Source of the DNA: a virus
Direction: 5' to 3' (one strand)
DNA length: 64,000 bases
Virus genome (UHGV): UHGV-0311442
Shown: one piece after another, positions 2,722 to 54,710 of the stretch
Position numbering within the stretch: the stretch's first letter is position 1
Layout of the letters: every line of letters begins with the position of its first letter
The notes under the pieces: model-generated
What the model saw: only the letters and a program-made list of their open reading frames with translations
What the model was told of the DNA's origin: nothing
Databases searched by the model: none
Position numbers and translations under genes: made by a program

Positions 2722-3456
2722 TTAATCCCTGGTTAATTGATCACGAATCTGCGGCGCAACATACTCGCCAGTTTTCAGTTCTTCGTGACAGGCTTTGGCG
2801 CGTTCAAACCCGTATTGGCGGGTGACCAAAGCGAGGTGATAAATACGTGCCGTAGTGTAGGCTTCTTTTGCTGCATCCCACATTGCGTGGTGCTCAAAAG
2901 CGGGCTTACCGCGCGTCCAATAAACTTGCTCTACCGTTAAGTCGGGTTCGAAACCAAACGCAAAAGCTAAACGCTCTGCGGTACGATCGCTATCTAACGC
3001 GCTAAATTTACGGAACTTCCCTGGCGGGATATCGCATTGTGCGAATGCGTTCATGAAAACCGGCGCATCGAAGTCGGGACCGCGCATGGTAATAACAAAC
3101 TCATGCTTTGCGGTGATCTCTCCGAGCCATTTTTGCATCGCCCACAGCGCGTCTGGCAATGCTGTTGTTCCACCCCAGGCTTCTTCATACGCTTCACGAG
3201 ATGGTGCGTATTCGGGTTCACCTTTACCTTCCCACCAACCAACGGTTTGTGGGTCTTCGTGGAAAATGGCTTTTGCTTTAGGATCGTTAGGATCAATACG
3301 GATGTATGAAGAACCGACCATTTTCAAGGTAGGGACGTCAAAAGCCACTAAACCTGCACTCAACAGATAAGCATCAGGACGTAACGATTTGGTTTCTGCA
3401 TCAGCACCAATAACCAGTGTCGGTGTGTACGGGGTGACAATTTTTGGGTAGGTCAT
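2722..3456 (-). CDS. DEDDh-type 3'-5' exonuclease (DexA/DnaQ-like)
   Basis: LVIGADAETKSL (D-x-E), PDFDAPVF, HHAMWDAAKEAY (H-x4-D) arrangement; AGGAG RBS. Confidence 0.5.
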   Translation of the reverse strand: MTYPKIVTPYTPTLVIGADAETKSLRPDAYLLSAGLVAFDVPTLKMVGSSYIRIDPNDPKAKAIFHEDPQTVGWWEGKGEPEYAPSREAYEEAWGGTTALPDALWAMQKWLGEITAKHEFVITMRGPDFDAPVFMNAFAQCDIPPGKFRKFSALDSDRTAERLAFAFGFEPDLTVEQVYWTRGKPAFEHHAMWDAAKEAYTTARIYHLALVTRQYGFERAKACHEELKTGEYVAPQIRDQLTRD

Positions 3457-8723: not shown

Positions 8724-9233
8724 TTAGAAGAACGGCTGGTTTGGAATGACAGCGTACTCTAAAATGAACATGTGTTCTGGGGCGTCTTCTTTACGCCAGA
8801 CTTTGTGCGTCGTCACAAGTTTTTCCAGAATCGTTAAAAAACTACGCTGGCAGTATGTGTTTTCACCAAGCAGTAGATTTTGAAGTTCTACAGTAGCGTC
8901 CATATACGCCTGTTTAAAGACTAAACTACGATTATACTGTCCGGTAAAATTCCAAAGCAAGACTTTCCCTTCTTCGGTTTCTTTTACCGTTGGCCGTAAA
9001 CCACAAATCCACAACAAGGCAAGGTTGACGTTCCAGTCAAACTCTAAACCTTCTTCTTCGTCATCACCGAATGCTGTGGGTAAAGCATCGTAAAATTCGT
9101 GTTTCTCTGCGAATTCTTCATCTGACTTAATCTCGTCTTCGATGCTGCTTCGGACGATACTGTAAACGTCTTTCGCGGTCAATTGTGCGGCTTTTGTAAT
9201 GCCTTTATACCAATCGGTTACTACGATGCTCAA
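8724..9233 (-). CDS. hypothetical protein (169 aa), probable TTG start
   Basis: no ATG near N-terminus; TTG at 9233 preceded by GAGGAG at ideal spacing; overlaps stop of upstream gene. Confidence 0.45.
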   Translation of the reverse strand: MSIVVTDWYKGITKAAQLTAKDVYSIVRSSIEDEIKSDEEFAEKHEFYDALPTAFGDDEEEGLEFDWNVNLALLWICGLRPTVKETEEGKVLLWNFTGQYNRSLVFKQAYMDATVELQNLLLGENTYCQRSFLTILEKLVTTHKVWRKEDAPEHMFILEYAVIPNQPFF

Positions 9234-9928
9234 AGGGTAACTCCTCTATTGATTGGAAAACTCGTGTTTATCGTATCCCAAATTTTACTAACTTCCGCCA
9301 ATTGAATCTGACGTGGTGTTTTCTTCGCAAACGCAAGCTGACGTGGGGCCGAGCCCACAACAACAGGCACATCGATTTTCGCGCTATAGAACGCGGCGTC
9401 TTTCATAAAGCCTGCCATTTCTCGTTGTGCTGCTCGAGATTTGCTTTTGATTCGCGTGTGAGCGCCACTTTCACCCCAGTGGTAAGCTAACGCAACTTCA
9501 GCCATGGTGGGCTTGCGTTTGAGTCGTTTGGTTAACCCCTTTTCAAGATGTTTAACATACGCGGCAGCCAGCAAAACAGCATTACGCGGATTATACAAAT
9601 CGGCGTTCTGACTAAGACCTAATTCTTTTCCATAAAGCCTTAGCAGATTACGCTTGGTACTTGGAAGCATCTGTACCAGGCTGTGTGCTCGTGAGCTTTT
9701 GTTGTAAGCCTTGGGATCAAAACGCGATTCACGATAAATCAGCGTAATCATCAGCTTAGGATCAACGCCTTGCTTTCGAGAGATTTCCACAATTAACGGG
9801 CTGACTTTTTCGAACCGATGTTGGATTTGTGTAAACTCACGCTGATGCTTAGATTGCGGCGTTGATGTTGACGCCTGTGCGTTAAACGCGAAAAGTGTTA
9901 CCAGTAAAAGAAAGAAGATACGAAACAT
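9230..9928 (-). CDS. secreted soluble lytic transglycosylase (SLT domain)
   Basis: signal peptide MFRIFFLLLVTLFAFNAQAS; SLT motifs ITLIYRESRFDP and SLVQMLPST; GGAG RBS before the second ATG (9928). Confidence 0.6.
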   Translation of the reverse strand: MFRIFFLLLVTLFAFNAQASTSTPQSKHQREFTQIQHRFEKVSPLIVEISRKQGVDPKLMITLIYRESRFDPKAYNKSSRAHSLVQMLPSTKRNLLRLYGKELGLSQNADLYNPRNAVLLAAAYVKHLEKGLTKRLKRKPTMAEVALAYHWGESGAHTRIKSKSRAAQREMAGFMKDAAFYSAKIDVPVVVGSAPRQLAFAKKTPRQIQLAEVSKIWDTINTSFPINRGVTL

Positions 9929-10028
9929 TTTGTTTCTCCAGTTGGATTTATACATTTCCGTATTCCGTAAGACGAAATGACGGCGCGGACAGCTAATACT
10001 CCTTTGTTGTGTGCCCTAATGATAATAT

Positions 10029-10526
10029 CTATTTAAAAGAGTTTGGAATTAATGACTCTGCTTCTCGGTACAGCTTATCGGGTAAGTATAACGTGTAGTG
10101 TTGTCTCCTCGGTTCAAGTTTTTTGTAAAGCCACAAAAAGATTTCTTGTCTTTCCCAGGAATCTAACCACCCATTTGCCATCCCCAGTGGAGGGATAGCA
10201 ACGCTGGTATCCAGTTCCTCAACACAATCTGCTAATGCGGTAATGCCCGCAGTAACATAAGAAACCTGGGACTTTAAACGCCAATGTGTTTTCGTTGGGA
10301 GCAAGATGCACTTTTCATCAGGGTAAACGTAAACGCTTCCAATCTTAATTTCGTCTTCGCGACACCGCTTACGGTAATCTTGATAAAGGTTGGGGTAGCG
10401 TTCACGGCACGCCAGTGCAATACCGCGACCCATCGCTCCTACGCAGTTAATGGTAACGACTTTATAGTCTTCGGGCGCATTAAAAAGATCGTTACCAATT
10501 TCAGATTCTTTACGTACCGTTAACAT
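10029..10526 (-). CDS. macro-domain-like protein (possible ADP-ribose-binding/processing)
   Basis: VVTINCVGAMGRGIALA and VAIPPLGMANGW resemble the macro-domain Gly-rich loop and second motif; start set to first ATG (track start is TTG); weak RBS. Confidence 0.4.
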   Translation of the reverse strand: MLTVRKESEIGNDLFNAPEDYKVVTINCVGAMGRGIALACRERYPNLYQDYRKRCREDEIKIGSVYVYPDEKCILLPTKTHWRLKSQVSYVTAGITALADCVEELDTSVAIPPLGMANGWLDSWERQEIFLWLYKKLEPRRQHYTLYLPDKLYREAESLIPNSFK

Positions 10527-10613
10527 AACGAAACGCCCGGAGTTGATGTGTAGTATTAAAACGTGTACCGCCGATTGATAACTCGACAAGTATAGCGATA
10601 TATGTTTTACCCA

Positions 10614-10982
10614 TTAGCGATTTTTCGTAATCCATTGTTTGACCGCCGCTTCTAAACCTTCGTGTTGTAAGCCCAGGCGTTGCATAGTCAGCGCCAAGTT
10701 GAGCGTGTGCACAACCTGTTCACGGAACTGATGATCGTTCATGCGGTCCCAGACCTTCTCTACCGAAATATTGTGTTTCCAGAGCAAATAAGCTTCGCGA
10801 CACGATGCGCGACGAACCAAGCTGGGTTTAACAAAAGGCAACTCGATTTCAGGCAAGTAACCTAAAAGCTTAACTAGCGGCGTTACCTGCGTCTTACCGA
10901 AGTCACCGCACTGATAACAAATTTGTAGAATATCAATTTCATTCAACGGTATACCGTAAATTGATGGGTTCTCTGTGAACAT
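10614..10982 (-). CDS. hypothetical protein (122 aa)
   Basis: strong GAGGAG RBS. Confidence 0.5.
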   Translation of the reverse strand: MFTENPSIYGIPLNEIDILQICYQCGDFGKTQVTPLVKLLGYLPEIELPFVKPSLVRRASCREAYLLWKHNISVEKVWDRMNDHQFREQVVHTLNLALTMQRLGLQHEGLEAAVKQWITKNR

Positions 10983-11184
10983 TCATATTCTCCTCAGGCT
11001 CGAAATGTGTTTCGGGTGGCAACGTCCCTAAAGCCCCTTGGATACAAGCTGTCAGCGTAGGTTTGCCGAAACAGACCTTACCTATTGTCCCCACATTGGG
11101 ATGCTGTAAGAACGCTTTTGCACGTTCGTATTCCTTCCAACAAATACTCGTATCCAAACCACCCACTCCGTACGATTTTAACAT
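10939..11184 (-). CDS. hypothetical protein (81 aa)
   Basis: ORF track; weak RBS; 44-nt overlap with next gene. Confidence 0.3.
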   Translation of the reverse strand: MLKSYGVGGLDTSICWKEYERAKAFLQHPNVGTIGKVCFGKPTLTACIQGALGTLPPETHFEPEENMNVHREPINLRYTVE

Positions 11185-11187
11185 AAT

Positions 11188-11250
11188 TAGCTCTCTTGAC
11201 GTAAATTTCTCACACTCATAGTGAGGTACGTCAAGAGAGCTTGATTGTTT
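11188..11250 (+). other. 15-bp perfect inverted repeat (AGCTCTCTTGACGTA / TACGTCAAGAGAGCT) with nested inner repeat, followed by T-run on plus strand
   Basis: read directly from sequence; terminator-like in plus orientation inside a minus-strand gene block. Confidence 0.5.
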
Positions 11251-11694
11251 TTAGAATGTTTTGCTAAAATCGACCCACTCACGATCGTGCGAGTAAACCG
11301 CCTGATAGCCGCGTCGGATGAAATACTCTTTTGCTTCTTTACATTTCGCATACATGCCAGTAACAATCTCGCCGAAAACTTCATCAGCTGCAATTGCTTT
11401 GAAAATCTCTTTCATTACACCCCGTTGACGGTAGTCTGGGAGCACGTATACTGAACGTATCTTAAGTGAACCGTTACGATTCCGATAACTACAGTATCCT
11501 ACCGCGACGTCATCCTGATACACCAGAACTATGCAGTTACCTTCGATCAGTTGCCGAGCTTTTAATTTCGGTACCGACGTTTTGATTTTCAGTAACGTGG
11601 CCTGGTGGTCTAAGTAACGGTAGTGCAGTTTGAGTAAATCGGCAGCTTGTCGCTCACCGACTTTAGAAGATGCGTTCAACAAATAAATTTCCAT
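11251..11694 (-). CDS. GNAT family N-acetyltransferase
   Basis: acetyl-CoA binding motif YRQRGVMKEIFKAI (R/Q-x-x-G-x-G/A pattern); start re-set to ATG at 11694. Confidence 0.6.
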   Translation of the reverse strand: MEIYLLNASSKVGERQAADLLKLHYRYLDHQATLLKIKTSVPKLKARQLIEGNCIVLVYQDDVAVGYCSYRNRNGSLKIRSVYVLPDYRQRGVMKEIFKAIAADEVFGEIVTGMYAKCKEAKEYFIRRGYQAVYSHDREWVDFSKTF

Positions 11695-11725
11695 TTGCAA
11701 ACCTTAGAGACGCAAAAAAGTAAAA

Positions 11726-11854
11726 TTAAAACCAACGCGCGATGACGAAAGCCGCAGCGGCTAATATGGCTGTGGTGATTATTAACCCACCCCATGAAAG
11801 TTCCGCGTCGTATAGTGCGGATATCGCTACATTCGTAGCGTTTATCGTGGTCAT
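11726..11854 (-). CDS. possible small membrane protein (42 aa)
   Basis: unlisted small ORF MTTINATNVAISALYDAELSWGGLIITTAILAAAAFVIARWF with GGAG RBS. Confidence 0.25.
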   Translation of the reverse strand: MTTINATNVAISALYDAELSWGGLIITTAILAAAAFVIARWF

Positions 11855-12020
11855 TTTCTGCTCCTATCAATACCCTCACACCGGAGGGTATCTTCTGGAT
11901 TATTTGGGTGGTTAATCTTCGAACGCCCAACGGTGTCGTTTAATCAGCCAGTTTAAACCTTTACCAATTAACCACAACGAGCCAAGTGTTAACAGAACCC
12001 CTACAACCATATTCCCTCTC

Positions 12021-12200
12021 CTAATTCCGCCATTCGCATTCGCGTTGACGCCAAATTGAACCCCACGATAGTTTAATCAGATAAGATGAAACTACCCATA
12101 AAATCATCACCACACAAAACATGACATAAAGAACCGCTAGAATGGACATGAAGCCAAACCCTGCCGCATCCACAATACGACGGAACCAATCAGTTTGCAT
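12021..12200 (-). CDS. possible small membrane protein (59 aa)
   Basis: hydrophobic core FGFMSILAVLYVMFCVVMILWVV; AAGGAG upstream; overlaps 3' end of ATPase gene. Confidence 0.35.
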   Translation of the reverse strand: MQTDWFRRIVDAAGFGFMSILAVLYVMFCVVMILWVVSSYLIKLSWGSIWRQRECEWRN

Positions 12201-14694
12201 AAACAATTTTTACTCCTTCGTTATACACCGCAGGCAATGTCACCCCTTCCGGTTCGATGACACAGTACGATGCTTCATTAAGTTTAGAATGAACCTCGGC
12301 TTCGTGGGAGACTACCAACAGTTGTGAAAATTCTCCTGAGTTTGCTAACGTTTTAATAAAGCCGACCAGGTTGTTACGGTGCTCCTCATCCATGCCCTCC
12401 GAAGGTTCATCCAAAAGCAACGGAAACTGATGCAACTTCAGCGCTTTGTACGCAGTCAGTCTGAACATCAGATTAAATATCGCACGCTGCGCCTTTGACC
12501 CTTTACGCACGTCAGGAACAGGCTCAGGATGCGTTTTTAGCTGGACAGGAAAAGTATAATCCAAATCGCCGTCAGTGAGATCACAAGGCATAACACGCAT
12601 GGGGTACGTCCAGACCTGTTCGATATAACGCGTCATTAACTCTGTGATTCTAACGATAGCGTTGTAAAAATACTTTCTAAGTACACCCTTTTCTGGCGAG
12701 AAGGCTTGAATCATCAGTTTGTTATTGAACTGCTGGGCTTGTAAGTCAGCAAGTTCGCGTTCCAAACTGTTGAGCTGGTTCAATTCATTTTCCATCTGAC
12801 GATAACGTTCGCGTGCGGTTGTAAAAGCATCCAGCTTCCCTTCTCGTGTACGTAAGAGTTCCTCGACGACCGTATTTGTCAACGTAACCTTAACGTCACT
12901 CTCTAACCGTTCGAATAACGCACTGAAATCATCTACAGCACGTTTAACATTCACTAGATAGGTAAGTGTCGTGTTAGCCAGTTCGTGCTCTCTACGACGC
13001 ATTGAGAGCATCTCTGTGGCTTTACCTAATCGCGACTGTTGGAAGGCGATCTTTTGTTGTAAAGCACCATCGACGTTACCAACGGCCGCTACGGCATCCT
13101 GCCATTCTTTTTCCGCCTTCACTAACCGTTGTCTGGTTTCATGGTACTCAATAGCAGAGTACAACTCACCGTCAAACGCTGCGCATAGACTCCCGAACTG
13201 CTCGCGAGACTCTGTGAAAACGTTACGTTCTTGCAAACGCTTAAAGAACATACTCAAAACAGGGTCCTTTGAATACGTCAGTACAATCTCACGAACCTGC
13301 CGCATATAAGTTACATCAGATTCTAATTCAACACGATCGCGTAATAAGGTCTCTAACTGCGTTTGCAGTTCCGTGCGCTGCTGTTGCTGTCCACGAATCG
13401 AAGACTCAAGTTCAGGCAAAGAACGCGTAACGCCTGGTCGAAACTTAAACCGACACTGCGGACAATCCACTTCCGCTGTTTCTAAGTAGTGGTTACGTTC
13501 GTGATTTAAATTCTGTAAAACGTTCTCCACTCGCTGGAGTCTATCCCGCAACCCGGCGGTTTTTTGATCCATCACCAGAAGCCGTTCTTCCAAAACATTG
13601 AGTTTTTCGGTCGAATGAATTGCGTCCAGCGTTGTTCCTAACCGTTGTCCCCAAACACGCGCGTCGGTAGCCGCACGAAGTTGGTCTAAATTGACGTTAT
13701 CGTTAAATAGACCCGGAAAGAGATGTTCAGTGTCCCATTTGGTAAGTAACTCACGTAAACGTGCCAGCGTATTCTTGAGACCTTCGTGATTCCGCATCAG
13801 GTAGTCCTGTCGTGTCGACTCATCCATCAATAACGACAAGTCTTTATTCAACATCGATACCTCTGTTTCAGTAGACACGACAGCTTCGCGGGCGGTCGCC
13901 TCGTTTTGTCGTGCGACCTGTATCTGTTCATCAGTAGGCAGACCACCACGATGTTGTAATATTGCGTCGATGGTTGGACCCAAGCTGTTTAATGACGCTT
14001 GGATTGTTTCGATGGTGACGCCGCGATTTAATCCTGGCAACTGTTCGATTTCTCGGTTCAGTTCACGTAAATCCGATTCCAAACCTTTTAATCTCGTCGC
14101 TAACTGCTGCCGTTCTTCCTCGTTCTCAATAACACGCGTCCGTAATTCGGCGATCTTACGGCTGGTGATTTCAATACCCCCATTTAAGGCAGTAAGGTTT
14201 TTACGTAAACGTTGATAAAACCCTAACGCGTAAGTGAGGTCAGAGGTGCTTAAACGGTAAAACCACTTGCGACGTAATTCGGTTCCCGCATCGGTTAACA
14301 AGACCTCACCATTTAATAGTTCTTTAATTTCTTTCGTAATACCCGTGATTTCTTCAACACGGGAGTTGTAGACTTTCGCATTACCTTGCTCGACGATCTT
14401 TGCCCCCGTGGTCAGGTTCTCAATATCACAAACCAAAGAGTTGCCTTTACGGGCAACTTTGAATCGATAGCGTTGATCGCCGACTAAACAGTAATTCGTG
14501 TAAGAACCGCCGTCCCTGAATTCAGTTTTAGCTGGTGCTAAGGGTAAGAACACAGACAGTAGACTGGTTTTCCCGCAGCCGTTCCCACCCAGGATAATTG
14601 TTGTTGGAGACTGGATAGTGAAATCGAAGGTTTCAATTTCATGTAACCCCATCCCCGTAAAACCTTTGAGTATAATGCGTTCAACTTTTAGCAT
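12190..14694 (-). CDS. Rad50/SbcC-like SMC-family ATPase with zinc hook
   Basis: Walker A ILGGNGCGKTSLL; long coiled-coil middle; CPQC hook motif mid-protein; Walker B/D-loop LLLDEPSEGMD; H-loop VSHE; start re-set to ATG at 14694 with GGAGGTG RBS. Confidence 0.7.
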   Translation of the reverse strand: MLKVERIILKGFTGMGLHEIETFDFTIQSPTTIILGGNGCGKTSLLSVFLPLAPAKTEFRDGGSYTNYCLVGDQRYRFKVARKGNSLVCDIENLTTGAKIVEQGNAKVYNSRVEEITGITKEIKELLNGEVLLTDAGTELRRKWFYRLSTSDLTYALGFYQRLRKNLTALNGGIEITSRKIAELRTRVIENEEERQQLATRLKGLESDLRELNREIEQLPGLNRGVTIETIQASLNSLGPTIDAILQHRGGLPTDEQIQVARQNEATAREAVVSTETEVSMLNKDLSLLMDESTRQDYLMRNHEGLKNTLARLRELLTKWDTEHLFPGLFNDNVNLDQLRAATDARVWGQRLGTTLDAIHSTEKLNVLEERLLVMDQKTAGLRDRLQRVENVLQNLNHERNHYLETAEVDCPQCRFKFRPGVTRSLPELESSIRGQQQQRTELQTQLETLLRDRVELESDVTYMRQVREIVLTYSKDPVLSMFFKRLQERNVFTESREQFGSLCAAFDGELYSAIEYHETRQRLVKAEKEWQDAVAAVGNVDGALQQKIAFQQSRLGKATEMLSMRRREHELANTTLTYLVNVKRAVDDFSALFERLESDVKVTLTNTVVEELLRTREGKLDAFTTARERYRQMENELNQLNSLERELADLQAQQFNNKLMIQAFSPEKGVLRKYFYNAIVRITELMTRYIEQVWTYPMRVMPCDLTDGDLDYTFPVQLKTHPEPVPDVRKGSKAQRAIFNLMFRLTAYKALKLHQFPLLLDEPSEGMDEEHRNNLVGFIKTLANSGEFSQLLVVSHEAEVHSKLNEASYCVIEPEGVTLPAVYNEGVKIVYAN

Positions 14695-14772
14695 ACCCAC
14701 CTCCATAAAGACGGAGTGTGGTGTAAAAAGAAAAAAATAAAGAAAGGGAGAACCCGAAGGTTCTCCCAAACG

Positions 14773-15381
14773 TTATTTGGTGTACAGGTGATAACCCATT
14801 GAAGTCCAATAATCGACGTTCTTCGTGTTTTCTACCCAAACCTGTCCCGCCTTTGTGGCTAAGACTTCCATTGTCAATGTACAGATCAGATTTGTTACCG
14901 GGATACAATTTCCAGGTGTAACATCATCCAGATAAACCGGATATAAAAACGGCGATTTAATGGATTGGTACGGGTAAGAATAGTGGCTACCGACCTTCCA
15001 CCCTTCTTCTACAGGACAGAGATTAAAAGTGCGTGTTTCAGGAACTGCGTTTTCAGAGATCCAGTTAACAACATCGGCTTTAATTCGATCGTGGTCGATA
15101 TAGTAGAACACAACACGTTGTGGGATACTTGTGGTACCAGCCGGGTCTAAAGCCTCCAACGCCTTAAAAGGCGACGTTAACAATGTTGTACTGTTCTCAA
15201 GCGCGTAAACCAACTTTTCGTAAGCAGTCGGTGTTTTACGTTTAAAATATTCCCGTAAGCGAGGGTATGCCAGGAAGCCCTCTACTTCTTCTTCCATTAA
15301 GTCAATGAATAAAGGCGTATGCGAAAAGCGTTCTGCATTTTGCATCGCTTCAAGAAAACGAACTAATGTAATTTCGTTCAT
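14773..15381 (-). CDS. hypothetical protein (202 aa)
   Basis: ORF track; AAGGAAAG RBS; no Mre11 phosphoesterase motifs. Confidence 0.55.
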   Translation of the reverse strand: MNEITLVRFLEAMQNAERFSHTPLFIDLMEEEVEGFLAYPRLREYFKRKTPTAYEKLVYALENSTTLLTSPFKALEALDPAGTTSIPQRVVFYYIDHDRIKADVVNWISENAVPETRTFNLCPVEEGWKVGSHYSYPYQSIKSPFLYPVYLDDVTPGNCIPVTNLICTLTMEVLATKAGQVWVENTKNVDYWTSMGYHLYTK

Positions 15382-15401
15382 CTGGTCTTTCCTTTTAGAT
15401 C

Positions 15402-15429
15402 AAAAAAAGAAGCCCCGAGTAAACGGGGC
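15402..15429 (-). terminator. rho-independent terminator
   Basis: hairpin GCCCCG-agtaaa-CGGGGC with T-run on minus strand. Confidence 0.5.
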
Positions 15430-15437
15430 CGGGCTAA

Positions 15438-15914
15438 TTACAGCCCTAAGTGCGTGAGTGATAAAATAGGTTGTGTTTCACCTTTAATCGTCGCGAAGGA
15501 ACGATACATTTCTGCGTTACTTGAAAAAACTTCGTTAGCAACGATACATTCACCCGTCTCTAAAGAAAGGAGATAAATGTAGTCGCTCCATACGCTTTGT
15601 ACCAACACCCACTCAAGTGCGGTATCATTTTCGCGTGTTGTTCGCAGGTGGTGAAAGTAAGGACGGATTGCATCAACTGCCGCATTAAAACGACGGTGAT
15701 AAATTCGGGTTAAATCAAAGGTCCAGATTGTTTCCAGGTCGACTGGATGTAGTGTGCGCACCGTTTCGATAATTGTCGACTGATCATTAAGGCGCGAGGC
15801 TTCGGCGATACGCAGCAGTTTCCAGGCCACCGTTAAGTTGTGGCGAATTTGTTCAGGTTTAGCCGACAGGTCATGATGAAATTGCGCAGCTTGGTAAACG
15901 TTAGATAATTGCAT
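15438..15914 (-). CDS. hypothetical protein (158 aa)
   Basis: ORF track; conserved TACCTAAAGGAGTATTAAA-ATG initiation context. Confidence 0.55.
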   Translation of the reverse strand: MQLSNVYQAAQFHHDLSAKPEQIRHNLTVAWKLLRIAEASRLNDQSTIIETVRTLHPVDLETIWTFDLTRIYHRRFNAAVDAIRPYFHHLRTTRENDTALEWVLVQSVWSDYIYLLSLETGECIVANEVFSSNAEMYRSFATIKGETQPILSLTHLGL

Positions 15915-15943
15915 TTTAATACTCCTTTAGGTAAACATGTCGT

Positions 15944-15969
15944 AAAAAGGACCCCGGACGTACCGGGGT
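15944..15969 (-). terminator. rho-independent terminator
   Basis: hairpin ACCCCGG-acgta-CCGGGGT with T-run on minus strand. Confidence 0.5.
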
Positions 15970-15980
15970 CAAGACTACAC

Positions 15981-16370
15981 TCAATGATCTAATTCAATAG
16001 CACCAGCCATCTTGCCCCGTTCTTCGATAACAATCAGATAACGGTCGCGAGATTTGCTTTTAGCGAGAGTTAAGACAACAGTAGGGTCGCATGTTTTCGT
16101 GGTGATAGGAAGAACCTCTCTTTCGACGGAATCGAGCAGAAAGTAATAACCTGCGGGACACATTGTGCCACCGTCAGCTTTTACCAGAATATAGCGCCCG
16201 TCTGCGCCGACTTCTTGGCAGATTGTTTCACCGACTTCGCAAACTTCAAACCCCGGAGGATTGTACTGATAATCGGTATTGTTGTTTGGGGTTAGCAGTA
16301 AATCGTTAACTTGAGTAGATGCTGCTACACTCAGGGAGAAGAAGAATGCTAAAACGCAGACGAGACGCAT
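15981..16370 (-). CDS. secreted protein 1 of 5 (signal peptide)
   Basis: MRLVCVLAFFFSLSVAAS; AAGGAG RBS. Confidence 0.55.
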   Translation of the reverse strand: MRLVCVLAFFFSLSVAASTQVNDLLLTPNNNTDYQYNPPGFEVCEVGETICQEVGADGRYILVKADGGTMCPAGYYFLLDSVEREVLPITTKTCDPTVVLTLAKSKSRDRYLIVIEERGKMAGAIELDH

Positions 16371-16380
16371 GAGTTACTCC

Positions 16381-16791
16381 TTAAATTTTAAGTTTATCCA
16401 TAGCTACAACGATAGGTTTTTCCGAAGTGTCTAATATCCCTACCATTGGCACACCATCTACGACTTCGAAGAATGGTTTGTTATTACCAGAGCATAGACG
16501 TTTGTCGTTGTATTCGAGACGTTGGGCCTTCCACGTTTCGAGGTTGAGTACAGACATTGGGCTGTCGTAGCACCAGGCACCACCTTGCTCAACGATGAAT
16601 ACGTATCTGCTACCTTTGTATTTAAACAGACTCTTCGCCTGACAGTACAACCCGTCAATTTCCGTACAATAGAAATCATCGGTGCTATTGACGTATTTAA
16701 TATTGTCTGGCAACTGAATCGTCTTTGCTGTAGCGTTGACAGAGAACAGAACAGCCATTGCAATGAGAAGAGTGTTGATGATAGTTTTCAT
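16381..16791 (-). CDS. secreted protein 2 of 5 (signal peptide)
   Basis: MKTIINTLLIAMAVLFSVNATA; AAGGA RBS. Confidence 0.55.
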   Translation of the reverse strand: MKTIINTLLIAMAVLFSVNATAKTIQLPDNIKYVNSTDDFYCTEIDGLYCQAKSLFKYKGSRYVFIVEQGGAWCYDSPMSVLNLETWKAQRLEYNDKRLCSGNNKPFFEVVDGVPMVGILDTSEKPIVVAMDKLKI

Positions 16792-16802
16792 GATAAAAGT
16801 CC

Positions 16803-17288
16803 TTAGTATTTAGATTGTTCTACGTATTTCTTAACCAGGTAAGCGAATTCAGCAACACCGATATCACCGAACCAAATCAGGTAACCGGGGTCGATGTTGT
16901 AGTAATAGCCGACGAGTTTCTTGGTGTGTGGGTTGTATAGCGTTACGATGTATTCCCAACCACAAGCGTTAGCTTTACAACCGCCGCTTTCAATCCAGAT
17001 TTTGTTGTTGATATTTACCGGATACATGTTACCGCCAGGGCCATCCATGTAACCTTTAGAGCCGAACATACCATCCAGTCCCACAGGGTCTAGTGTTTTA
17101 TCAACAACGGCTTTAAACGACTTATCGGTATCGTACAAGTCGTTGATGTTTGGGCACGCATTTGGCTGACCTTCCCAAGCGTTTCCATCGCAGGTAAGCA
17201 ATTCGTCTACGGAGGCCGCATCTACAGTTGGCGTGGCACCGATAAACAAGAAAACCAGAAAGAACATCAGTGTATGTAAACGTTTCAT
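16803..17288 (-). CDS. secreted Cys-containing protein 3 of 5 (signal peptide)
   Basis: MKRLHTLMFFLVFLFIGATPTVDAAS; AAGGAG RBS; several Cys in mature part. Confidence 0.55.
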   Translation of the reverse strand: MKRLHTLMFFLVFLFIGATPTVDAASVDELLTCDGNAWEGQPNACPNINDLYDTDKSFKAVVDKTLDPVGLDGMFGSKGYMDGPGGNMYPVNINNKIWIESGGCKANACGWEYIVTLYNPHTKKLVGYYYNIDPGYLIWFGDIGVAEFAYLVKKYVEQSKY

Positions 17289-17306
17289 TGTAACTACTCC
17301 TTTAGA

Positions 17307-17693
17307 TTATTCGGCAGGACGATTTAAGGTAACGCGTCCGATTAATTCGGCGTTGTGAAAGAAGTCCACAGCGGTATAATTACCAACGGATAATGGGTGA
17401 ATACTAACTGACATTACTTTCGGTTGTTCGCAAGCAATATCGGTTAGACGTTGGTAGACTTGCGCACGGGTGTCAGCAATGAGTAACCCCGTACACGCTT
17501 CACCACGCACTAAACGATAAACTTGCAGTTTACCGAAACTGCGCATTAACGTAGGCGTCTCATCCGGGTTGATAATCGGTGAGTCAGGAGCCGGTTCGTA
17601 ATAGCGGACATCCGAATCACCGAAAGCATAAGTGCCAGTAATTCCGACCGCACAGAAAATAATGATAGTATAAAGTATAGTTCTGATATTCAT
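17307..17693 (-). CDS. secreted protein 4 of 5 (signal peptide)
   Basis: MNIRTILYTIIIFCAVGITGTYAFG; start ambiguous (GTG 17699 or ATG 17693). Confidence 0.5.
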   Translation of the reverse strand: MNIRTILYTIIIFCAVGITGTYAFGDSDVRYYEPAPDSPIINPDETPTLMRSFGKLQVYRLVRGEACTGLLIADTRAQVYQRLTDIACEQPKVMSVSIHPLSVGNYTAVDFFHNAELIGRVTLNRPAE

Positions 17694-17721
17694 TTTCACG
17701 CACTCTAAAAAAGATTAATAG

Positions 17722-18183
17722 TTATTTGTTAGGACGGGTGTGCCCACAGTTTTGGAAGAAAGTTTCAGATAAACGATCGCCTTCTACGGTAAAGTTAGCG
17801 GCATCGTTACCATTGATACTCACACTGAAAGTTTTGGCATTACCGATAGCATTAACGAAAGCAACCCAAGCGTGTTCTGCCTTGTCACTACCGTCCACGG
17901 TAGGGATGTTATAGGTTTTGCCGTTTACGACAATATCCATCGTGTTATCTTCAGCGTTAGTTGCACCTACGGGTTCCCCGTAATACCAAACCATGCGACC
18001 GTAAAATTTGCGATTCGCAGTTTCAGTGTCACAGTTGATAGACAGTCCGTTTCCGGCGGTGTCTTCAATTTCGTAAACTGCCTGGCCAGGGTTTTGTATT
18101 TGTTCCCAGCTGTTGATAGCGGCGTGTGCAGTATTGAAACCGATTACGAAAAGGGCGATTAAAAAGGAAGTGAAGATTTTCAT
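17722..18183 (-). CDS. secreted protein 5 of 5 (signal peptide)
   Basis: MKIFTSFLIALFVIGFNTAHA; AAAGGAG RBS; first gene after promoter-like motif. Confidence 0.55.
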   Translation of the reverse strand: MKIFTSFLIALFVIGFNTAHAAINSWEQIQNPGQAVYEIEDTAGNGLSINCDTETANRKFYGRMVWYYGEPVGATNAEDNTMDIVVNGKTYNIPTVDGSDKAEHAWVAFVNAIGNAKTFSVSINGNDAANFTVEGDRLSETFFQNCGHTRPNK

Positions 18184-20926: not shown

Positions 20927-21481
20927 TTAAGCAGGGTAAGCTAAAAACAACAACTGCTGGCCGAGTTTACGTACAGTATACCAACCGTGGGCTTTAGCGA
21001 CCGCGATCAACGTTTCCCAGTCATCAACATCACACTGCTCATTCCGAAGTCTTGTAAAGAGTGCCTCGGCTTCGCTTTGGTTTAATAACTTACCTGGGTT
21101 GTCTGGGGTGCAGTCAGTAGGGGTTGGAAAGAAAGTATACTGACGCGCTAGGAGAAAATCGACCAGATACTTGGTATTTTCTTTATAAACCAGCGTGGAA
21201 GACTTTCCTTCGTGGAAGAAGCTGCCTGTTTTCCAAGCGCTATCCCCCAGTAAGCTCTGAAGGTAATCTGTAAAGCCCGTTCTGAAAGGGATATGGTTTT
21301 TACGTGTGATGTTACGACGCAGCGGGGTTTCCTCTACAGCTTGTACACCCACCCCTACTATCATCGCACCTGGCTGAATAATGCTATTGGTCAGTACGGT
21401 ATAAGGACGGACAAAGAAATGTTCGCCTACGCCTTTTTCAAGGGTTTGGATAATTTCATTTTTCAGTTCAGTTTGAAACAT
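20927..21481 (-). CDS. GW...QLLF-motif paralog family member (184 aa)
   Basis: C-terminus AKAHGWYTVRKLGQQLLFLAYPA. Confidence 0.55.
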   Translation of the reverse strand: MFQTELKNEIIQTLEKGVGEHFFVRPYTVLTNSIIQPGAMIVGVGVQAVEETPLRRNITRKNHIPFRTGFTDYLQSLLGDSAWKTGSFFHEGKSSTLVYKENTKYLVDFLLARQYTFFPTPTDCTPDNPGKLLNQSEAEALFTRLRNEQCDVDDWETLIAVAKAHGWYTVRKLGQQLLFLAYPA

Positions 21482-21510
21482 GGTATATTCTCCTTTTTCG
21501 GTTTTCTTAA

Positions 21511-22248
21511 TTACGCGGTTTTAATTAACAGCAGATAGTCCTTCGTAATCTCAGCACAACCCCACCCTCTCATCGCGGCGATTTTACGAAGATCAATTTT
21601 CTCGTGATATCTCAATAAGGGATCGCCTGAGTTAATCTCAACCAGGTGTGTGGCTTTAGAAATCGTTTCTACATCAGGGATCTGTTTTGCTAAGTCGGAT
21701 GCAATTAACTCGATGATACGGTATCCCTCTAACACAGAAACATAGATGCGCAAACCATATAGCGTGCCTTCGTCTTCTAATGGACAAAGATCGATGCCGG
21801 GTCCAAGCAGTGATAACTCGACGTTATCGGGAAGGTTTTCTGCATTTCGGAGTAACCCTATCCCATTTCTAAACAGAGGGAAGTAAGAGAATAGTGGTGG
21901 TAAAGCCCAACCGTTCCCAATAAGCACATCAGCGATACTCGTAGGTGTGTTCGCAAGAAGACGAATGTGGTCAGCCACAACTTCAAGTTCGGCGTCACTG
22001 ATCAACTTATAGATTAACATGACACTGGTTTCGGTATTAATAACAAAGAAGACGCGGTTGGCGTAACTGCCTATCACGTATTCGTCAATCATACAGTCGA
22101 TAACGTCACTGTCTGGATAATCTTCAGGTTTAATTGTTCCAGCATCGATTAACTTAGCAGGTTGCGATTGTTTTATTAGTTCGTTAACCACCGTAGAAGA
22201 AAGTTCTAAACTGGTGTTGGTAAAGATATCGTCTAATAATTCTTTCAT
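21511..22248 (-). CDS. GW...LL-motif paralog family member, divergent (245 aa)
   Basis: C-terminus AAMRGWGCAEITKDYLLLIKTA. Confidence 0.5.
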   Translation of the reverse strand: MKELLDDIFTNTSLELSSTVVNELIKQSQPAKLIDAGTIKPEDYPDSDVIDCMIDEYVIGSYANRVFFVINTETSVMLIYKLISDAELEVVADHIRLLANTPTSIADVLIGNGWALPPLFSYFPLFRNGIGLLRNAENLPDNVELSLLGPGIDLCPLEDEGTLYGLRIYVSVLEGYRIIELIASDLAKQIPDVETISKATHLVEINSGDPLLRYHEKIDLRKIAAMRGWGCAEITKDYLLLIKTA

Positions 22249-22568: not shown

Positions 22569-23534
22569 ATGGAGAAATCCAGTGTTGATTTTTTCTCAAT
22601 TGGTATCGTCGCGGAAGACAAACCCCGTGGTACAGATCGGGTAAAAGTGATACCAATTGAAACTAACTTTGCTAACCCTACCGTGGTGCAATCTGTTTCT
22701 TCAGCAACTGAAAAGACGCATGAAACGTCTGGTGCAACAGATAACCTAACCATTAAGACGGGTAACACGATAACAGCAAAGTGGTGGAAGTTTAACTCCA
22801 ACCGAATTAATTCCCCTGACGTTAAACGAGAAGACTACGTTATCTTGTTACGTTTGGGGAAAACCGATATTTATTTTTGGATTGATCTGAACTTCGCTAA
22901 CGTTAAGCGATTAGAAGATGCGGTTTATGCGTGGTCGGCTGACCCTGAAAACCAAATGGCGGATGACTTGTCCAATGCGTATGTGTTGAACGTTTCGACG
23001 ATTGACAAACATATCACGCTAAGAACAAGTATGGTGAATGGCGAGAAAGCGGCGTGGTTGTTTCAGTTTGATAATGCAAACGGTACGTGGCAGTGCGTTG
23101 ACCATAAAGGAAACAAGTATTACATTAACTCGGTTGAAGATGATCTCGGGTTTGAGAATGCGATGCTTTCAAAAGTGAACATCAACAAAGAAGATGCGTT
23201 CATTTATTCAAAGCGTTCTATTAACCTGGAAACGAAAACGATTAATGAAAAATGCGAAGTTCGCAATACAGAAGCAGCGAAATCCGTTACGTTTAAAACA
23301 CAAACCTGGTTAACGGAAGCGGGAAGTTCGACAACGTTTAAAACGCCGAACTTTAAACAAGAAGGGAAGGAAGCGATGTTCACCGGTAATTTGGAAATCG
23401 CTAAGAACTTCAAATACGGTGGTACGGGTGAAGGTGTGGGTGTCTTTACGGTTAAAGATGCTGTTATTTCCGGTATTACCTTTAGCGTTCACATTCACCA
23501 AGGTAAACATGGTCCGACATCACCTCCGCAATAA
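22569..23534 (+). CDS. hypothetical protein (321 aa), possibly virion-associated
   Basis: ORF track; AAGGA RBS; plus-strand gene isolated between minus-strand blocks. Confidence 0.5.
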   Translation: MEKSSVDFFSIGIVAEDKPRGTDRVKVIPIETNFANPTVVQSVSSATEKTHETSGATDNLTIKTGNTITAKWWKFNSNRINSPDVKREDYVILLRLGKTDIYFWIDLNFANVKRLEDAVYAWSADPENQMADDLSNAYVLNVSTIDKHITLRTSMVNGEKAAWLFQFDNANGTWQCVDHKGNKYYINSVEDDLGFENAMLSKVNINKEDAFIYSKRSINLETKTINEKCEVRNTEAAKSVTFKTQTWLTEAGSSTTFKTPNFKQEGKEAMFTGNLEIAKNFKYGGTGEGVGVFTVKDAVISGITFSVHIHQGKHGPTSPPQ

Positions 23535-42506: not shown

Positions 42507-43430
42507 ATGACAACCAATGCAGAACCAAGGTTATCGAATCGTTTATACGATAAACCCACCGTATTGTCCGTAGTCGCTACGTCCAAGTGTAACCTGGATT
42601 GTAGCTTCTGCGGTGGAGCCTATTACATGAATCGTGAAGATTCTCCGCGAGAGTTTCAACGTGAGCGAATTTTGGAAGCGCTGGAAGCTAATCCAACCAT
42701 TACCGAAATTCAGTGGACGGGTGGTGAGCCATTACTGGCAACCCGTAAAATTGAGGCGTTTGTTGACGAATTAAAAGTGATTCGTCCAGAACTCAAACAC
42801 CAGTTGTATACCAATGGCTTAAAGATGCGTAAATCGCATCTCCCGTTGCTAAAACAGTTTGACAATGTCTACGTTAGCATCGATGGGTTTAAGTCGTCTG
42901 AGCGCCCGTTTATGCGCTTTATTGACGAAGGCTGTTACGAAGCACTGGAAACGATCTACGAGCTGGATAATGTCCAGACTTGGGGTGTCCTGACACGGGA
43001 CCGTTTAGGGGACAAACGCTGGCACGAAGATATTATTCAGCTGCACAGCGCGATTTACCATTACGGTTTCCGTGCAATGACGTTACTCTTAGATGCGAAA
43101 ATGCCAAAACCTTTATCGCCTGACCACGTCATGAACTTTATTTACGGCTACTATCAGGTTCAGGACAACATTGAACGTCTGAATGTAGTAAATGGACGTG
43201 AATGTGGCTTTACGGTAAGTAAAGTGTTTGAAGAAGGGTGTAACGTTTGCAGCGAAAGTCTTTGGATTAATGCAGACGGTGGTGAGCACCAACTCCAGAA
43301 TGCACCTAACGTTCTGGAATCGGGATGTAACCAACTGGCCTTCTCTATCGGTGTAGAGGCGTACGAATATATTCGTCGCGTAGTGATGGCAGGACGTAAT
43401 AGAGGGGCGGCAAATGAGCCAAGCAAATGA
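42507..43430 (+). CDS. radical SAM enzyme (307 aa)
   Basis: CNLDCSFCGG (CxxxCxxC) and GGEPLL SAM-binding motif; extra C-terminal Cys (CNVCSE...GCNQ). Confidence 0.7.
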   Translation: MTTNAEPRLSNRLYDKPTVLSVVATSKCNLDCSFCGGAYYMNREDSPREFQRERILEALEANPTITEIQWTGGEPLLATRKIEAFVDELKVIRPELKHQLYTNGLKMRKSHLPLLKQFDNVYVSIDGFKSSERPFMRFIDEGCYEALETIYELDNVQTWGVLTRDRLGDKRWHEDIIQLHSAIYHYGFRAMTLLLDAKMPKPLSPDHVMNFIYGYYQVQDNIERLNVVNGRECGFTVSKVFEEGCNVCSESLWINADGGEHQLQNAPNVLESGCNQLAFSIGVEAYEYIRRVVMAGRNRGAANEPSK

Positions 43431-53342: not shown

Positions 53343-54090
53343 TCATGAACCCTTTTGTTTTTATCCAATATAAGCAATTTGCACCAACCTGAACTGGCTC
53401 GATCCTATCAAGTTCTTCCATCAGAGCCAGATAAGTTTGCCAAACGGTTTGACGTTCGAAGAAAAATGATGTTGTGCCATTAGACCTAAGACATGCACGT
53501 ACTAAGTGCTCGGTTTGTGAAAACTGTATATTAACGTTGTTCAGGACACGTTGTATAGTATCAGAGTCGTAATGCGCGAAACGATCTTTGTGTACCAGAA
53601 CCATCTCTATAGGCGAGGAATCGTCATTGACTGAAAAAGGTTCGTCAATGCGAATAAGGTTATTCCGGTGAGGTACCCCATCGTAACCGAGCGTATAGAC
53701 ATCCATACCTTCCCCCGGGTTACAGTCGAAATACTCCAGAATTTTATCAGCGTTTTTCTCCGCCGAACGTTTAAAGTAAACAATATAAACGGTATGACTA
53801 ATCTTCTCAACTTCGTATACTTTTTCGGAGAACGATCTGAAAATTGCCATGACGTTTAATCTTCCTTTGTCTTTAGCAACGTAACTTGCAACTAAACACG
53901 TTGCTTCACCACGAAGAACATCGTCAATGAACTCTTTTGCTCGTTTTAATTCATCCTCGTTAAAACCACCGATAGTGAGCTCATTCCCATAAATCTGATA
54001 AGCAAGATGTGGAGTAACGTTTTTCAGGAAACTCGTAATGATGTGCGTGTATGCCCAAAGACTACTATTCTTAAACTCGATAGTTTTCAT
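53314..54090 (-). CDS. hypothetical protein (258 aa)
   Basis: ORF track. Confidence 0.5.
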   Translation of the reverse strand: MKTIEFKNSSLWAYTHIITSFLKNVTPHLAYQIYGNELTIGGFNEDELKRAKEFIDDVLRGEATCLVASYVAKDKGRLNVMAIFRSFSEKVYEVEKISHTVYIVYFKRSAEKNADKILEYFDCNPGEGMDVYTLGYDGVPHRNNLIRIDEPFSVNDDSSPIEMVLVHKDRFAHYDSDTIQRVLNNVNIQFSQTEHLVRACLRSNGTTSFFFERQTVWQTYLALMEELDRIEPVQVGANCLYWIKTKGFMNENAQFRFA

Positions 54091-54134
54091 TTTATTTTCC
54101 TTTTGGTTTTACAAGCTGAAACGTTAATTTACGC

Positions 54135-54629: not shown

Positions 54630-54676
54630 GGTATATTCTCCTAAAATGGTTTTCGTTAAGTGAGAGCTTTTGTACT

Positions 54677-54710
54677 CTCACCTAAGTAATATATATCTGA
54701 AATTATTTTT
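54677..54710 (-). promoter_or_regulatory. conserved promoter-like motif, copy 3
   Basis: minus-strand reading AATAATTTCAGATATATATTACTTAGGTGAGAG, then hairpin and RBS of 54135..54629. Confidence 0.45.

What the first reader, a model, noticed from the sequence alone, without database searches (positions are those of the whole stretch)
12190..14694. Rad50/SbcC-like ATPase with zinc hook but no adjacent Mre11/SbcD
The protein has Walker A/B, H-loop, a long coiled coil and a CPQC hook, which are hallmarks of Rad50/SbcC. In T4- and T5-type phages the nuclease partner is encoded adjacently, but neither flanking ORF shows phosphoesterase motifs; instead two tiny membrane-protein ORFs follow. The partner may be elsewhere or the ATPase may work with a different nuclease.
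Basis: partly seen in the sequence, partly recalled or inferred. Interest (0 to 1): 0.4.

Follow-up and report, generated by a model that had tools for sequence, protein, structure and literature searches.

The report
Jumbo-phage SbcC/Rad50 ATPase, partner encoded far away
This gene encodes the Rad50/SbcC-type ATPase of a phiKZ-like jumbo phage, and the absence of a nuclease gene next to it is ordinary, because this phage family always encodes the SbcD/Mre11 partner about 90-150 kb away, as published in 2016.

Summary
Window 12190-14694 (-) encodes an 834-aa protein with a Walker A motif (res 36-43), an S-K-A-Q signature-like motif, Walker B/D-loop (759-769), an H-loop (H797), a roughly 530-residue helical middle and one central CPQC (411-414).

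It matches PHROG 77, "SbcC-like subunit" (E 2.5e-91). Rad50 tops both the PDB profile search and the fold search. It is the ortholog of Salmonella phage SPN3US gp186 (58% aa) and phiKZ gp165. Both hook cysteines are invariant in 14 homologs down to 20% identity.

No SbcD/Mre11 gene lies anywhere in the 64-kb window. The closest genomes available (IMG/VR contigs, 97.6% nt identity locally) encode an SbcD-like protein (PHROG 100, E 1e-59) about 86-87 kb from SbcC. In the phage collection, SbcC and SbcD homologs each hit 290 records with nearly the same genus distribution.

Thomas et al. 2016 (PMC5105663) already reported this. gp186 is an essential SbcC, gp27 is the SbcD, the two genes are "drastically separated" in SPN3US and phiKZ, and a small transmembrane ORF follows SbcC.

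Verdict: a real gene, correctly recognised, but already known. The "different nuclease" idea is not needed. Low interest.

The parts
12190..14694 (-). SbcC/Rad50-type ABC ATPase gene, 834 aa. Ortholog of SPN3US gp186, phiKZ gp165 and Asesino gp207.
   Evidence: PHROG 77 E 2.5e-91. tblastn 70.9% aa to Asesino and 58% to SPN3US. Profile versus PDB is topped by Rad50 at E 1.8e-11. Foldseek is topped by C. thermophilum Rad50 at 2e-17.
14566..14589 (-). Walker A / P-loop, GGNGCGKT (res 36-43)
   Evidence: G36, N38, G39, G41 and K42 are invariant in 14 homologs. Coordinates.
13453..13464 (-). CPQC zinc-hook motif (res 411-414) at the turn between the two long helical arms
   Evidence: C411 and C414 are invariant and P412 is nearly invariant down to 20% identity. 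It is the only CxxC in the protein. It lies in the non-helical turn between helices 365-405 and 426-474 of the model.
12487..12501 (-). Signature-motif equivalent, GSKAQ (res 732-736). It deviates from the canonical S-G-G-E/Q.
   Evidence: hhalign places S733-K-A-Q on the SGGE of E. coli SbcC. S733 is invariant, and the Vibrio pTD1 homolog keeps SGGE.
12388..12420 (-). Walker B and D-loop, LLLDEPSEGMD (res 759-769)
   Evidence: D762, E763 and D769 are invariant. Aligned to E. coli SbcC 'lflDEgfgtlD'.
12298..12315 (-). H-loop, VVSHEA (H797)
   Evidence: S796 and H797 are invariant. Aligned to E. coli SbcC 'viSHv'.
12021..12206 (-). 61-aa single-pass membrane-like ORF that overlaps the SbcC stop codon by 17 nt. 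Homolog of SPN3US gp187 and Asesino gp208.
   Evidence: Kyte-Doolittle 2.82 over 19 aa. PHROG 16515 at E 9e-5. It shares a central hydrophobic segment and a C-terminal CEWR with the SPN3US 63-aa ORF. Noted by Thomas et al. 2016.
11912..12010 (-). 32-aa hydrophobic ORF with its own Shine-Dalgarno, conserved in SPN3US-like phages
   Evidence: PHROG 13448 at E 6.6e-14. Kyte-Doolittle 2.32. Similar to the 42-aa ORF at L015 5665-5793 in SPN3US.
14724..14765 (-). Stem-loop plus T-run (terminator-like) between the upstream ORF and the SbcC start
   Evidence: Read directly from the sequence: GGGAGAACC-TTCG-GGTTCTCCC followed by TTTCTTTATTTTTTT. Function is inferred only.

Best explanation
The gene encodes the SbcC/Rad50-type ATPase subunit of a phage SbcCD (Mre11-Rad50-like) nuclease in a phiKZ-like, nucleus-forming jumbo phage related to the Erwinia Erskinevirus and Salmonella Seoulvirus genera.

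Shown here: the protein has a bipartite ABC head, two long helical arms and a central CPxC hook. Its orthologs are a core gene of 290 phiKZ-like phage records.

Shown in relatives: an SbcD-like protein with the calcineurin-type metal-binding motifs (DxH, GDxFD, G-TPS-HD, GHDH) is encoded about 86-87 kb away on the same strand. That position falls outside this window.

Inferred by analogy with T4 gp46/gp47, E. coli SbcCD and Mre11-Rad50:
- Two SbcC heads dimerise on ATP and clamp DNA ends.
- The hooks join two coiled coils through a shared Zn2+.
- Bound SbcD resects or cleaves DNA ends and hairpins, which feeds recombination-dependent replication and repair of the phage genome.

Genetic essentiality is published for the SPN3US ortholog (amber mutants). 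It is suggested for phiKZ orf165, which tolerated no transposon insertions.
For: Family:
- PHROG 77 'SbcC-like subunit' at E 2.5e-91 over residues 1-833.
- The profile of 14 homologs against PDB gives Rad50 heads as all top hits, E 1.8e-11 to 1e-10.
- hhalign gives 94.6% probability to the T4 gp46 N-lobe and to the E. coli SbcC C-lobe.
- Foldseek is topped by Rad50 of the C. thermophilum MRN complex, 2.2e-17.

Architecture: AF2 model, pLDDT 81.9. Catalytic residues and hook cysteines are invariant.

Orthology and synteny: Asesino gp207 70.9% and SPN3US gp186 58%, with the same gene order on both sides.

Partner:
- SPN3US gp27, annotated as the SbcCD D subunit, finds 290 phage records. The SbcC query also finds 290, with nearly the same genus counts.
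- In IMGVR_UViG_3300029126_000001 (97.6% nt to window 9193-17694), SbcC lies at 53684-56185 and SbcD at about 143.1-144.2 kb.
- That SbcD matches PHROG 100 at E 1.2e-59.
- Two more relatives show the same 86-87 kb spacing once circular permutation is allowed for.
- The metal-binding motifs align with T4 gp47 and E. coli SbcD.

Literature:
- PMC5105663 reports gp186 as an essential SbcC, gp27 as the SbcD, and the genes as 'drastically separated' in SPN3US and phiKZ.
- PMC7824862 reports SbcC and SbcD as practically universal in jumbo phages.
- bioRxiv 10.1101/2025.11.23.690004 reports no transposon insertions in phiKZ orf165.
Against: - No biochemical data exist for any chimallivirus SbcCD, so complex formation between these two proteins is inferred from co-occurrence and homology.
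- The window's own genome beyond 64 kb could not be read. Exact-sequence look-ups found nothing.
- Pfam SMC_N scores 34.3 bits for the window protein, below the 40-bit gathering threshold.
- The clade's SbcD reaches only E 0.032 on Pfam Metallophos and has no sequence-profile hit in PDB. It is very divergent, with 'GTPSHD' in place of 'GNHD'.
- The signature motif is non-canonical (S-K-A-Q).
- No Q-loop glutamine could be assigned.
Confidence: 0.9

Rival explanations
1. The ATPase works with a different nuclease encoded nearer to it, such as the Rv2179c-like 3'-5' exonuclease (window 2722-3456) or the RNase H-domain protein (1199-2719), rather than with an Mre11/SbcD-type phosphoesterase.
For: No Mre11/SbcD lies within the 64 kb. 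An exonuclease (PF16473, 4.9e-11; PHROG 255) and an RNase H protein lie about 9 kb downstream on the same strand, in conserved synteny.
Against: An SbcD ortholog exists in every close relative examined. It co-occurs with SbcC across 290 phage records. Nothing suggests that Rad50-family ATPases pair with DEDD exonucleases. Gene scattering is general in these genomes, including the RNA polymerase subunits.
Confidence: 0.04
2. It is not a recombination nuclease subunit. It is an SMC-like or Lamassu LmuB-like protein used for DNA compaction, or for a conflict (defence or counter-defence) function, in the phage nucleus.
For: The PADLOC LmuB model hits at E 1.4e-18. Foldseek also returns Smc5/6, condensin, MukB, JetC and LmuB with E 1e-15 to 1e-9. 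GenBank annotators called it an 'SMC domain-containing protein'.
Against: The PHROG SbcC score (308 bits) far exceeds the LmuB score (65 bits). The apex is an invariant CPxC hook and not an SMC hinge domain. Ten neighbouring ORFs gave no LmuA or other Lamassu/Wadjet component in PADLOC. The gene is core and essential in lytic phages. A matching SbcD is always present.
Confidence: 0.04
3. The CPQC is a chance or merely structural motif, and the protein is a generic ABC/AAA ATPase with a helical insert.
For: Zinc binding was not and cannot be tested here. CxxC tetrapeptides are common in proteins generally.
Against: It is the only CxxC among 8 cysteines and sits at 49% of the length. Both cysteines are invariant down to 20% identity while the surrounding arms are almost unalignable. 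The motif lies in the single break between the two long helical arms of the model.
Confidence: 0.02

Closest known systems
Salmonella phage SPN3US gp186 (SbcC subunit) with gp27 (SbcD), and Pseudomonas phage phiKZ gp165 with gp65
   Same: Orthologs: 58% aa to gp186 over the full length, and 27% over 53% of the length to phiKZ gp165. They share the length (about 830 aa), the motifs, the CPxC hook, the flanking gene order and the small transmembrane ORF after SbcC. They also share the split arrangement, with SbcD far away.
   Different: Only sequence divergence. The window phage is a distinct species or genus-level relative, at 70.9% aa to the nearest isolate Asesino and with no megablast DNA match in the phage collection. 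The small transmembrane ORFs are absent next to phiKZ, RAY and Vibrio pTD1 SbcC.
T4 gp46/gp47 (phage Rad50/Mre11)
   Same: The same PHROGs, 77 and 100. hhalign to the gp46 N-lobe gives 94.6% probability. The SbcD motifs align with gp47. A small membrane protein gene (47.1) is part of the T4 cluster.
   Different: T4 gp46 has 560 aa and this protein has 834, with arms about 300 residues longer. In T4 the two genes are separated only by two small ORFs, whereas here they lie about 87 kb apart. No BLAST-level similarity is detectable.
E. coli SbcCD and archaeal/eukaryotic Mre11-Rad50
   Same: A bipartite ABC head, an antiparallel coiled coil and a CxxC hook. The C-lobe aligns to E. coli SbcC. The top PDB sequence and fold hits are Rad50.
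   Different: In E. coli sbcD and sbcC form one operon with overlapping genes. The signature motif is S-K-A-Q here and S-G-G-E there. The partner carries 'GTPSHD' rather than 'GNHD'.
Lamassu LmuB, and the SMC, MukB and JetC families
   Same: The same superfamily fold: an ABC head plus a coiled coil.
   Different: There is no hinge domain, no kleisin or LmuA-type partner nearby, and the sequence scores are far weaker than for SbcC.

Membership tests
Rad50/SbcC (T4 gp46-type) ABC ATPase | N-terminal Walker A P-loop | tested here: met
   GGNGCGKT at residues 36-43. G36, N38, G39, G41 and K42 are invariant in 14 homologs.
Rad50/SbcC (T4 gp46-type) ABC ATPase | C-terminal half-head with signature motif, Walker B, D-loop and H-loop | tested here: met
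   Walker B LLLDE (D762, E763), D-loop D769 and H-loop H797 are invariant. The signature position is S733-K-A-Q, a deviation from SGGE/Q, and it aligns onto the E. coli SbcC SGGE.
Rad50/SbcC (T4 gp46-type) ABC ATPase | Q-loop glutamine | tested here: inconclusive
   In the hhalign to T4 gp46, the gp46 glutamine falls in a gap next to E122. No conserved Gln could be assigned.
Rad50/SbcC (T4 gp46-type) ABC ATPase | Long antiparallel coiled coil inserted between the two half-heads | tested here: met
   The AF2 model is helical at 138-405 and 426-664 between the N- and C-lobes, mean pLDDT 81.9. This is a prediction, not an experiment.
Rad50/SbcC (T4 gp46-type) ABC ATPase | CxxC zinc hook at the coiled-coil apex | tested here: met
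   CPQC at 411-414 is the only CxxC and is central. Both Cys are invariant to 20% identity, and the motif lies in the turn between the arms. Zinc binding itself cannot be tested here.
Rad50/SbcC (T4 gp46-type) ABC ATPase | Significant match to curated family models | tested here: met
   PHROG 77 at E 2.5e-91. The PDB profile is topped by Rad50 at 1.8e-11. Pfam SMC_N scores only 34.3 bits against a 40-bit cut-off for the window protein alone, although PF02463 is precomputed for nearly all homologs. NCBIfam Rad50 models score far below their cut-offs.
Rad50/SbcC (T4 gp46-type) ABC ATPase | Cognate Mre11/SbcD phosphoesterase encoded in the same genome | tested here: met
   It is not in the window: tblastn best E 0.84, clade HMM best E 0.19, and the motif regex found none while the control passed. 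It is present about 86-87 kb from SbcC in three nearest relatives at 87-100% aa, at PHROG 100 E 1.2e-59. It co-occurs in 290 phage records. The window's own full genome was not available.
Rad50/SbcC (T4 gp46-type) ABC ATPase | Adjacent or operonic arrangement with the nuclease gene (typical, not defining) | tested here: not met
   The flanking ORFs are PHROG 9964 (unknown function) and small membrane ORFs. The same holds in all phiKZ-like relatives and is published.
Rad50/SbcC (T4 gp46-type) ABC ATPase | ATP-dependent nuclease activity in complex with SbcD | not testable with these tools
   This needs biochemistry. Only genetic essentiality of the SPN3US ortholog is published.
SMC proper (Smc, MukB, condensin) | Globular hinge dimerisation domain at the coiled-coil apex | tested here: not met
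   Only about 20 non-helical residues (406-425), carrying the CPQC, separate the arms.
Lamassu LmuB | Operon with an LmuA effector (and LmuC) | tested here: not met
   PADLOC found no Lamassu component in ten neighbouring ORFs. The LmuB hit at 65 bits is much weaker than the SbcC hit at 308 bits.

The most novel reading that the evidence does not exclude
The most novel reading not excluded is that, in the Seoulvirus/Erskinevirus-type clade, the SbcC ATPase is physically tethered by the small single-pass membrane proteins whose genes follow it. The first of these genes overlaps the SbcC stop codon by 17 nt. Tethering to a membrane or to the phage-nucleus periphery would make end-processing spatially restricted, and the genomic separation from SbcD would reflect separately timed expression and regulated assembly of the nuclease.
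Probability: 0.08. Interest if true: 0.5.

Novelty: already known. Interest (0 to 1): 0.1.

Why it matters
It matters little beyond annotation. The gene can be labelled with confidence as the SbcC/Rad50 subunit of the phage SbcCD nuclease, a core and essential replication/recombination function of phiKZ-like jumbo phages. The lack of an adjacent nuclease should not be read as an orphan ATPase or as a new pairing.

Two general lessons follow. Operon-adjacency expectations taken from T4, T5 and E. coli fail in chimalliviruses, whose functional modules are scattered. Pfam thresholds alone miss both subunits (SMC_N scores below its cut-off and Metallophos reaches only E 0.03), so clade-specific profiles or PHROGs are needed.

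The real open questions are biochemical. Does the divergent SbcD ('GTPSHD') bind this SbcC? Where does the complex act relative to the phage nucleus? Do the downstream membrane peptides play a role?

Tried and rejected
- Megablast of the gene against the phage collection found no match. The source genome is not an INPHARED record.
- Exact-sequence look-ups of the 834-aa and 859-aa products found nothing on record. The window's own contig could not be retrieved. The nearest relative is an IMG/VR contig at 97.6% nt.
- A Pfam scan of about 40 window ORFs of roughly 150 aa or more found no Metallophos hit. I then found that the bona fide clade SbcD (SPN3US gp27) itself scores only E 0.032 on Metallophos. 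Pfam negativity was therefore not decisive, and I replaced it with tblastn, a clade HMM and a motif regex with a positive control.
- The first pattern scan for SbcD, using the Stratton protein, missed the nearest-relative contig. It succeeded with an alignment query and again with the relative's own protein.
- The profile of six SbcD sequences against PDB gave no Mre11 hit because the alignment was too narrow. hhalign of that profile against single T4 gp47 and E. coli SbcD sequences was statistically weak (E 0.028 and 2e-4) although the motifs were in register.
- A structure prediction for SbcD was not possible under the tool's input restriction.
- Considered and rejected: a Lamassu LmuB or SMC identity, and the nearby exonuclease as the partner.
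- Small transmembrane ORFs as a universal SbcC companion: rejected, because the ORFs next to phiKZ and Vibrio pTD1 SbcC are hydrophilic and unrelated.
Full report
**1. What is in the sequence**

The ORF list shows one long minus-strand ORF at 12190-14769.
- It is preceded by GGAGGTG about 5 nt upstream.
- A stem-loop with a T-run closes the upstream gene.
- All homologs begin with the same MLKVERI.

The product is 834 aa.

| Motif | Sequence | Residues |
|---|---|---|
| Walker A | GGNGCGKT | 36-43 |
| Hook | CPQC | 411-414 |
| Signature-like | GSKAQ | 732-736 |
| Walker B and D-loop | LLLDEPSEGMD | 759-769 |
| H-loop | VVSHEA | H797 |

The CPQC is the only CxxC in the protein.

The flanks are as described.
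- Upstream lies a 202-aa ORF (14773-15381) with no Pfam hit. It matches PHROG 9964 of unknown function.
- Downstream lie a 61-aa ORF that overlaps the SbcC stop by 17 nt and a 32-aa ORF with its own ribosome-binding site.
- Each small ORF has one strongly hydrophobic segment.

**2. Is it more than chance?**

I aligned the protein with 13 homologs. They range from 87% to 20% identity and include phiKZ gp165, Erwinia phage RAY gp23, a Ralstonia phage and Vibrio phage pTD1.
- The invariant columns are the catalytic ones: G36, N38, G39, G41, K42, S733, D762, E763, D769 and H797.
- The two hook cysteines, C411 and C414, are also invariant, and P412 is nearly so.
- The helical arms between them barely align.

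An AlphaFold2 model built on 26 sequences has mean pLDDT 81.9. It shows an N-terminal alpha/beta lobe (1-130), helices 138-405, a short turn carrying the CPQC, helices 426-664, and a C-terminal lobe (671-834). This is the Rad50/SbcC layout. There is no SMC hinge domain.

**3. Family assignment**

- PHROGs gives family 77, "SbcC-like subunit of palindrome specific endonuclease", at E 2.5e-91 over the whole protein. This is the label carried by T4 gp46.
- Pfam SMC_N scores 34.3 bits, below its 40-bit cut-off.
- A single-sequence PDB search gives Rad50 heads at modest E-values.
- The 14-sequence profile raises them to 1.8e-11, and every top hit is Rad50.
- hhalign of the profile matches the T4 gp46 N-lobe and the E. 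coli SbcC C-lobe, each at 94.6% probability. The latter places S733-K-A-Q on the SGGE signature.
- Foldseek against PDB is topped by Rad50 of the Chaetomium MRN complex (2.2e-17). Smc5/6, condensin, LmuB, MukB and JetC follow.
- PADLOC's LmuB model hits at 1.4e-18. This is expected for a superfamily relative and is far weaker than the SbcC match. Ten neighbouring ORFs contain no Lamassu or Wadjet partner.

**4. Whose gene is it?**

tblastn against 50,697 phage records finds 290 records, all phiKZ-like jumbo phages of Pseudomonas, Erwinia, Salmonella, Vibrio, Serratia, Aeromonas, Klebsiella and Ralstonia.
- The best are Erwinia phage Asesino gp207 (70.9% aa) and SPN3US gp186 (58%).
- There is no megablast DNA match.
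- Gene order on both sides matches Asesino and the SPN3US-like phage SPLA5c. It includes the GNAT acetyltransferase, macro-domain protein, transglycosylase, exonuclease and RNase H downstream.
- In IMG/VR, contig IMGVR_UViG_3300029126_000001 (225,000 bp) is 97.6% identical in DNA to window 9193-17694.

**5. Where is the nuclease?**

Pfam scans of about 40 window ORFs gave no Metallophos hit. That test is weak, because the annotated SbcD of SPN3US (gp27, 382 aa, record positions 21020-22168) itself reaches only E 0.032 on Metallophos. I therefore searched the window directly with clade-specific queries.
- tblastn with gp27 gave a best E of 0.84.
- phmmer --max on all six-frame segments found nothing.
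- An HMM built from six clade SbcD proteins gave a best E of 0.19.
- An ordered regex for the phosphoesterase motifs found no hit, while the positive control passed.

The nuclease is not in the 64 kb. It is present in the relatives.
- gp27 finds 290 phage records, with nearly the same genus counts as the SbcC query.
- In the 97.6%-identical IMG/VR contig, SbcC lies at 53684-56185 and the SbcD ortholog at about 143.1-144.2 kb on the same strand, 87 kb apart.
- In contig 3300045988_078609 the gap is 86 kb. In contig 3300045988_113438 it is 86.5 kb across the contig ends, that is, allowing for circular permutation.
- The relative's SbcD matches PHROG 100, "SbcD-like subunit", at E 1.2e-59.
- It keeps DxH, GDxFD, G-(TPS)-HD and GHDH in register with T4 gp47 and E. 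coli SbcD.

Record positions of the two genes (kb) show the same separation in isolates:

| Phage | SbcD | SbcC |
|---|---|---|
| SPN3US | 21.0 | 168.9 |
| Stratton | 21.9 | 170.2 |
| phiKZ (ORF65, ORF165) | 55.1 | 169.1 |
| RAY | 193.3 | 28.9 |

Projected onto the window, the partner would lie about 75 kb beyond coordinate 1.

**6. Literature**

- Thomas et al. 2016 (J Virol, PMC5105663) isolated amber mutants of SPN3US and showed that gp186, "a predicted SbcC subunit" homologous to phiKZ ORF165, is essential.
- The same paper names gp27 as the SbcD subunit. [quoted passage not shown]
- It notes the region of more than 600 residues between the half-heads. It also points out the 63-aa transmembrane gp187 immediately downstream and compares it with T4 gp47.1.
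- Iyer et al. 2021 (PMC7824862) describe SbcC and SbcD as practically universal in jumbo phages.
- A 2025 transposon screen found no insertions in phiKZ orf165.

Every element of the finding is therefore already in print for the orthologs.

**7. Mechanism**

Shown here or in relatives: the architecture, the conserved catalytic and hook residues, core-gene status, and a co-occurring SbcD.

Inferred from T4 gp46/47, E. coli SbcCD and Mre11-Rad50:
- ATP-driven head dimerisation clamps DNA ends.
- Zinc-hook-mediated pairing joins the coiled coils.
- SbcD-catalysed resection or hairpin opening feeds recombination-dependent replication and repair of the phage genome.

Not established: a physical SbcC-SbcD complex in any chimallivirus, its location relative to the phage nucleus, and any role for the small membrane ORFs.

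These ORFs are conserved between the window, Asesino and SPN3US. They are absent next to phiKZ, RAY and Vibrio pTD1 SbcC, so a general functional link is unlikely.

**8. Verdict**

"Partner elsewhere" is right, and "different nuclease" is unsupported. The arrangement is the documented norm for this phage family.
- Novelty: already known. The phage itself is a somewhat divergent relative of Erskinevirus and Seoulvirus, but that does not bear on the finding.
- Interest: low.

Noticed in passing
window 10029-10589 (-): This 186-aa macro-domain protein matches the PADLOC DarG antitoxin model at E 5e-37 (Pfam Macro 5e-6), and no DarT lies nearby. It could be a phage counter-defence against DNA ADP-ribosylation. 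The orthologs are annotated 'Appr-1-p processing protein' or 'phosphatase'.
   Followed up: partly
window 42507-43430 (+) and 43414-44736 (+): Two adjacent, overlapping radical SAM proteins (PF04055 at 6e-14 and 3.4e-15, each with a 4Fe-4S cluster domain) lie downstream of three giant ORFs of 1394-1727 aa that have no Pfam hit.
   Followed up: no
window 15981-18183 (-): A run of five small ORFs (129-161 aa) each begins with a signal-peptide-like hydrophobic N-terminus. They lie between SbcC and the baseplate-like gene at 22569-23534 (+). In phiKZ, RAY, Ralstonia FLC4-11C and Vibrio pTD1, SbcC sits directly beside that divergent structural gene. The block therefore looks like a clade-specific insertion of secreted or membrane proteins.
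   Followed up: partly
window 14724-14765 (-): A perfect 9-bp stem (GGGAGAACC/GGTTCTCCC) with a TTCG loop and a T-run lies immediately upstream of the SbcC ribosome-binding site. It looks like an intrinsic terminator and would separate SbcC from the upstream gene.
   Followed up: no
It is similar to a 43-aa ORF in SPN3US at L015 5967-6098.
   Followed up: partly
window 58659-63933 (-): A tail-fibre module: a T4 gp38-like adhesin (PF05268, 5.8e-69), a protein with an S74 intramolecular-chaperone domain, and a 712-aa protein with a SASA sialate-O-acetylesterase-type domain plus DUF6645.
   Followed up: no
L003 9021-10169 (SPN3US gp27) and L024 3992-5140: The chimallivirus SbcD has 'G-T-P-S-H-D' in place of the canonical Mre11 motif III 'G-N-H-D'. 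It falls below the Pfam and NCBIfam thresholds (Metallophos E 0.032, TIGR00619 E 0.0012) and has no sequence-profile hit in PDB.
   Followed up: partly
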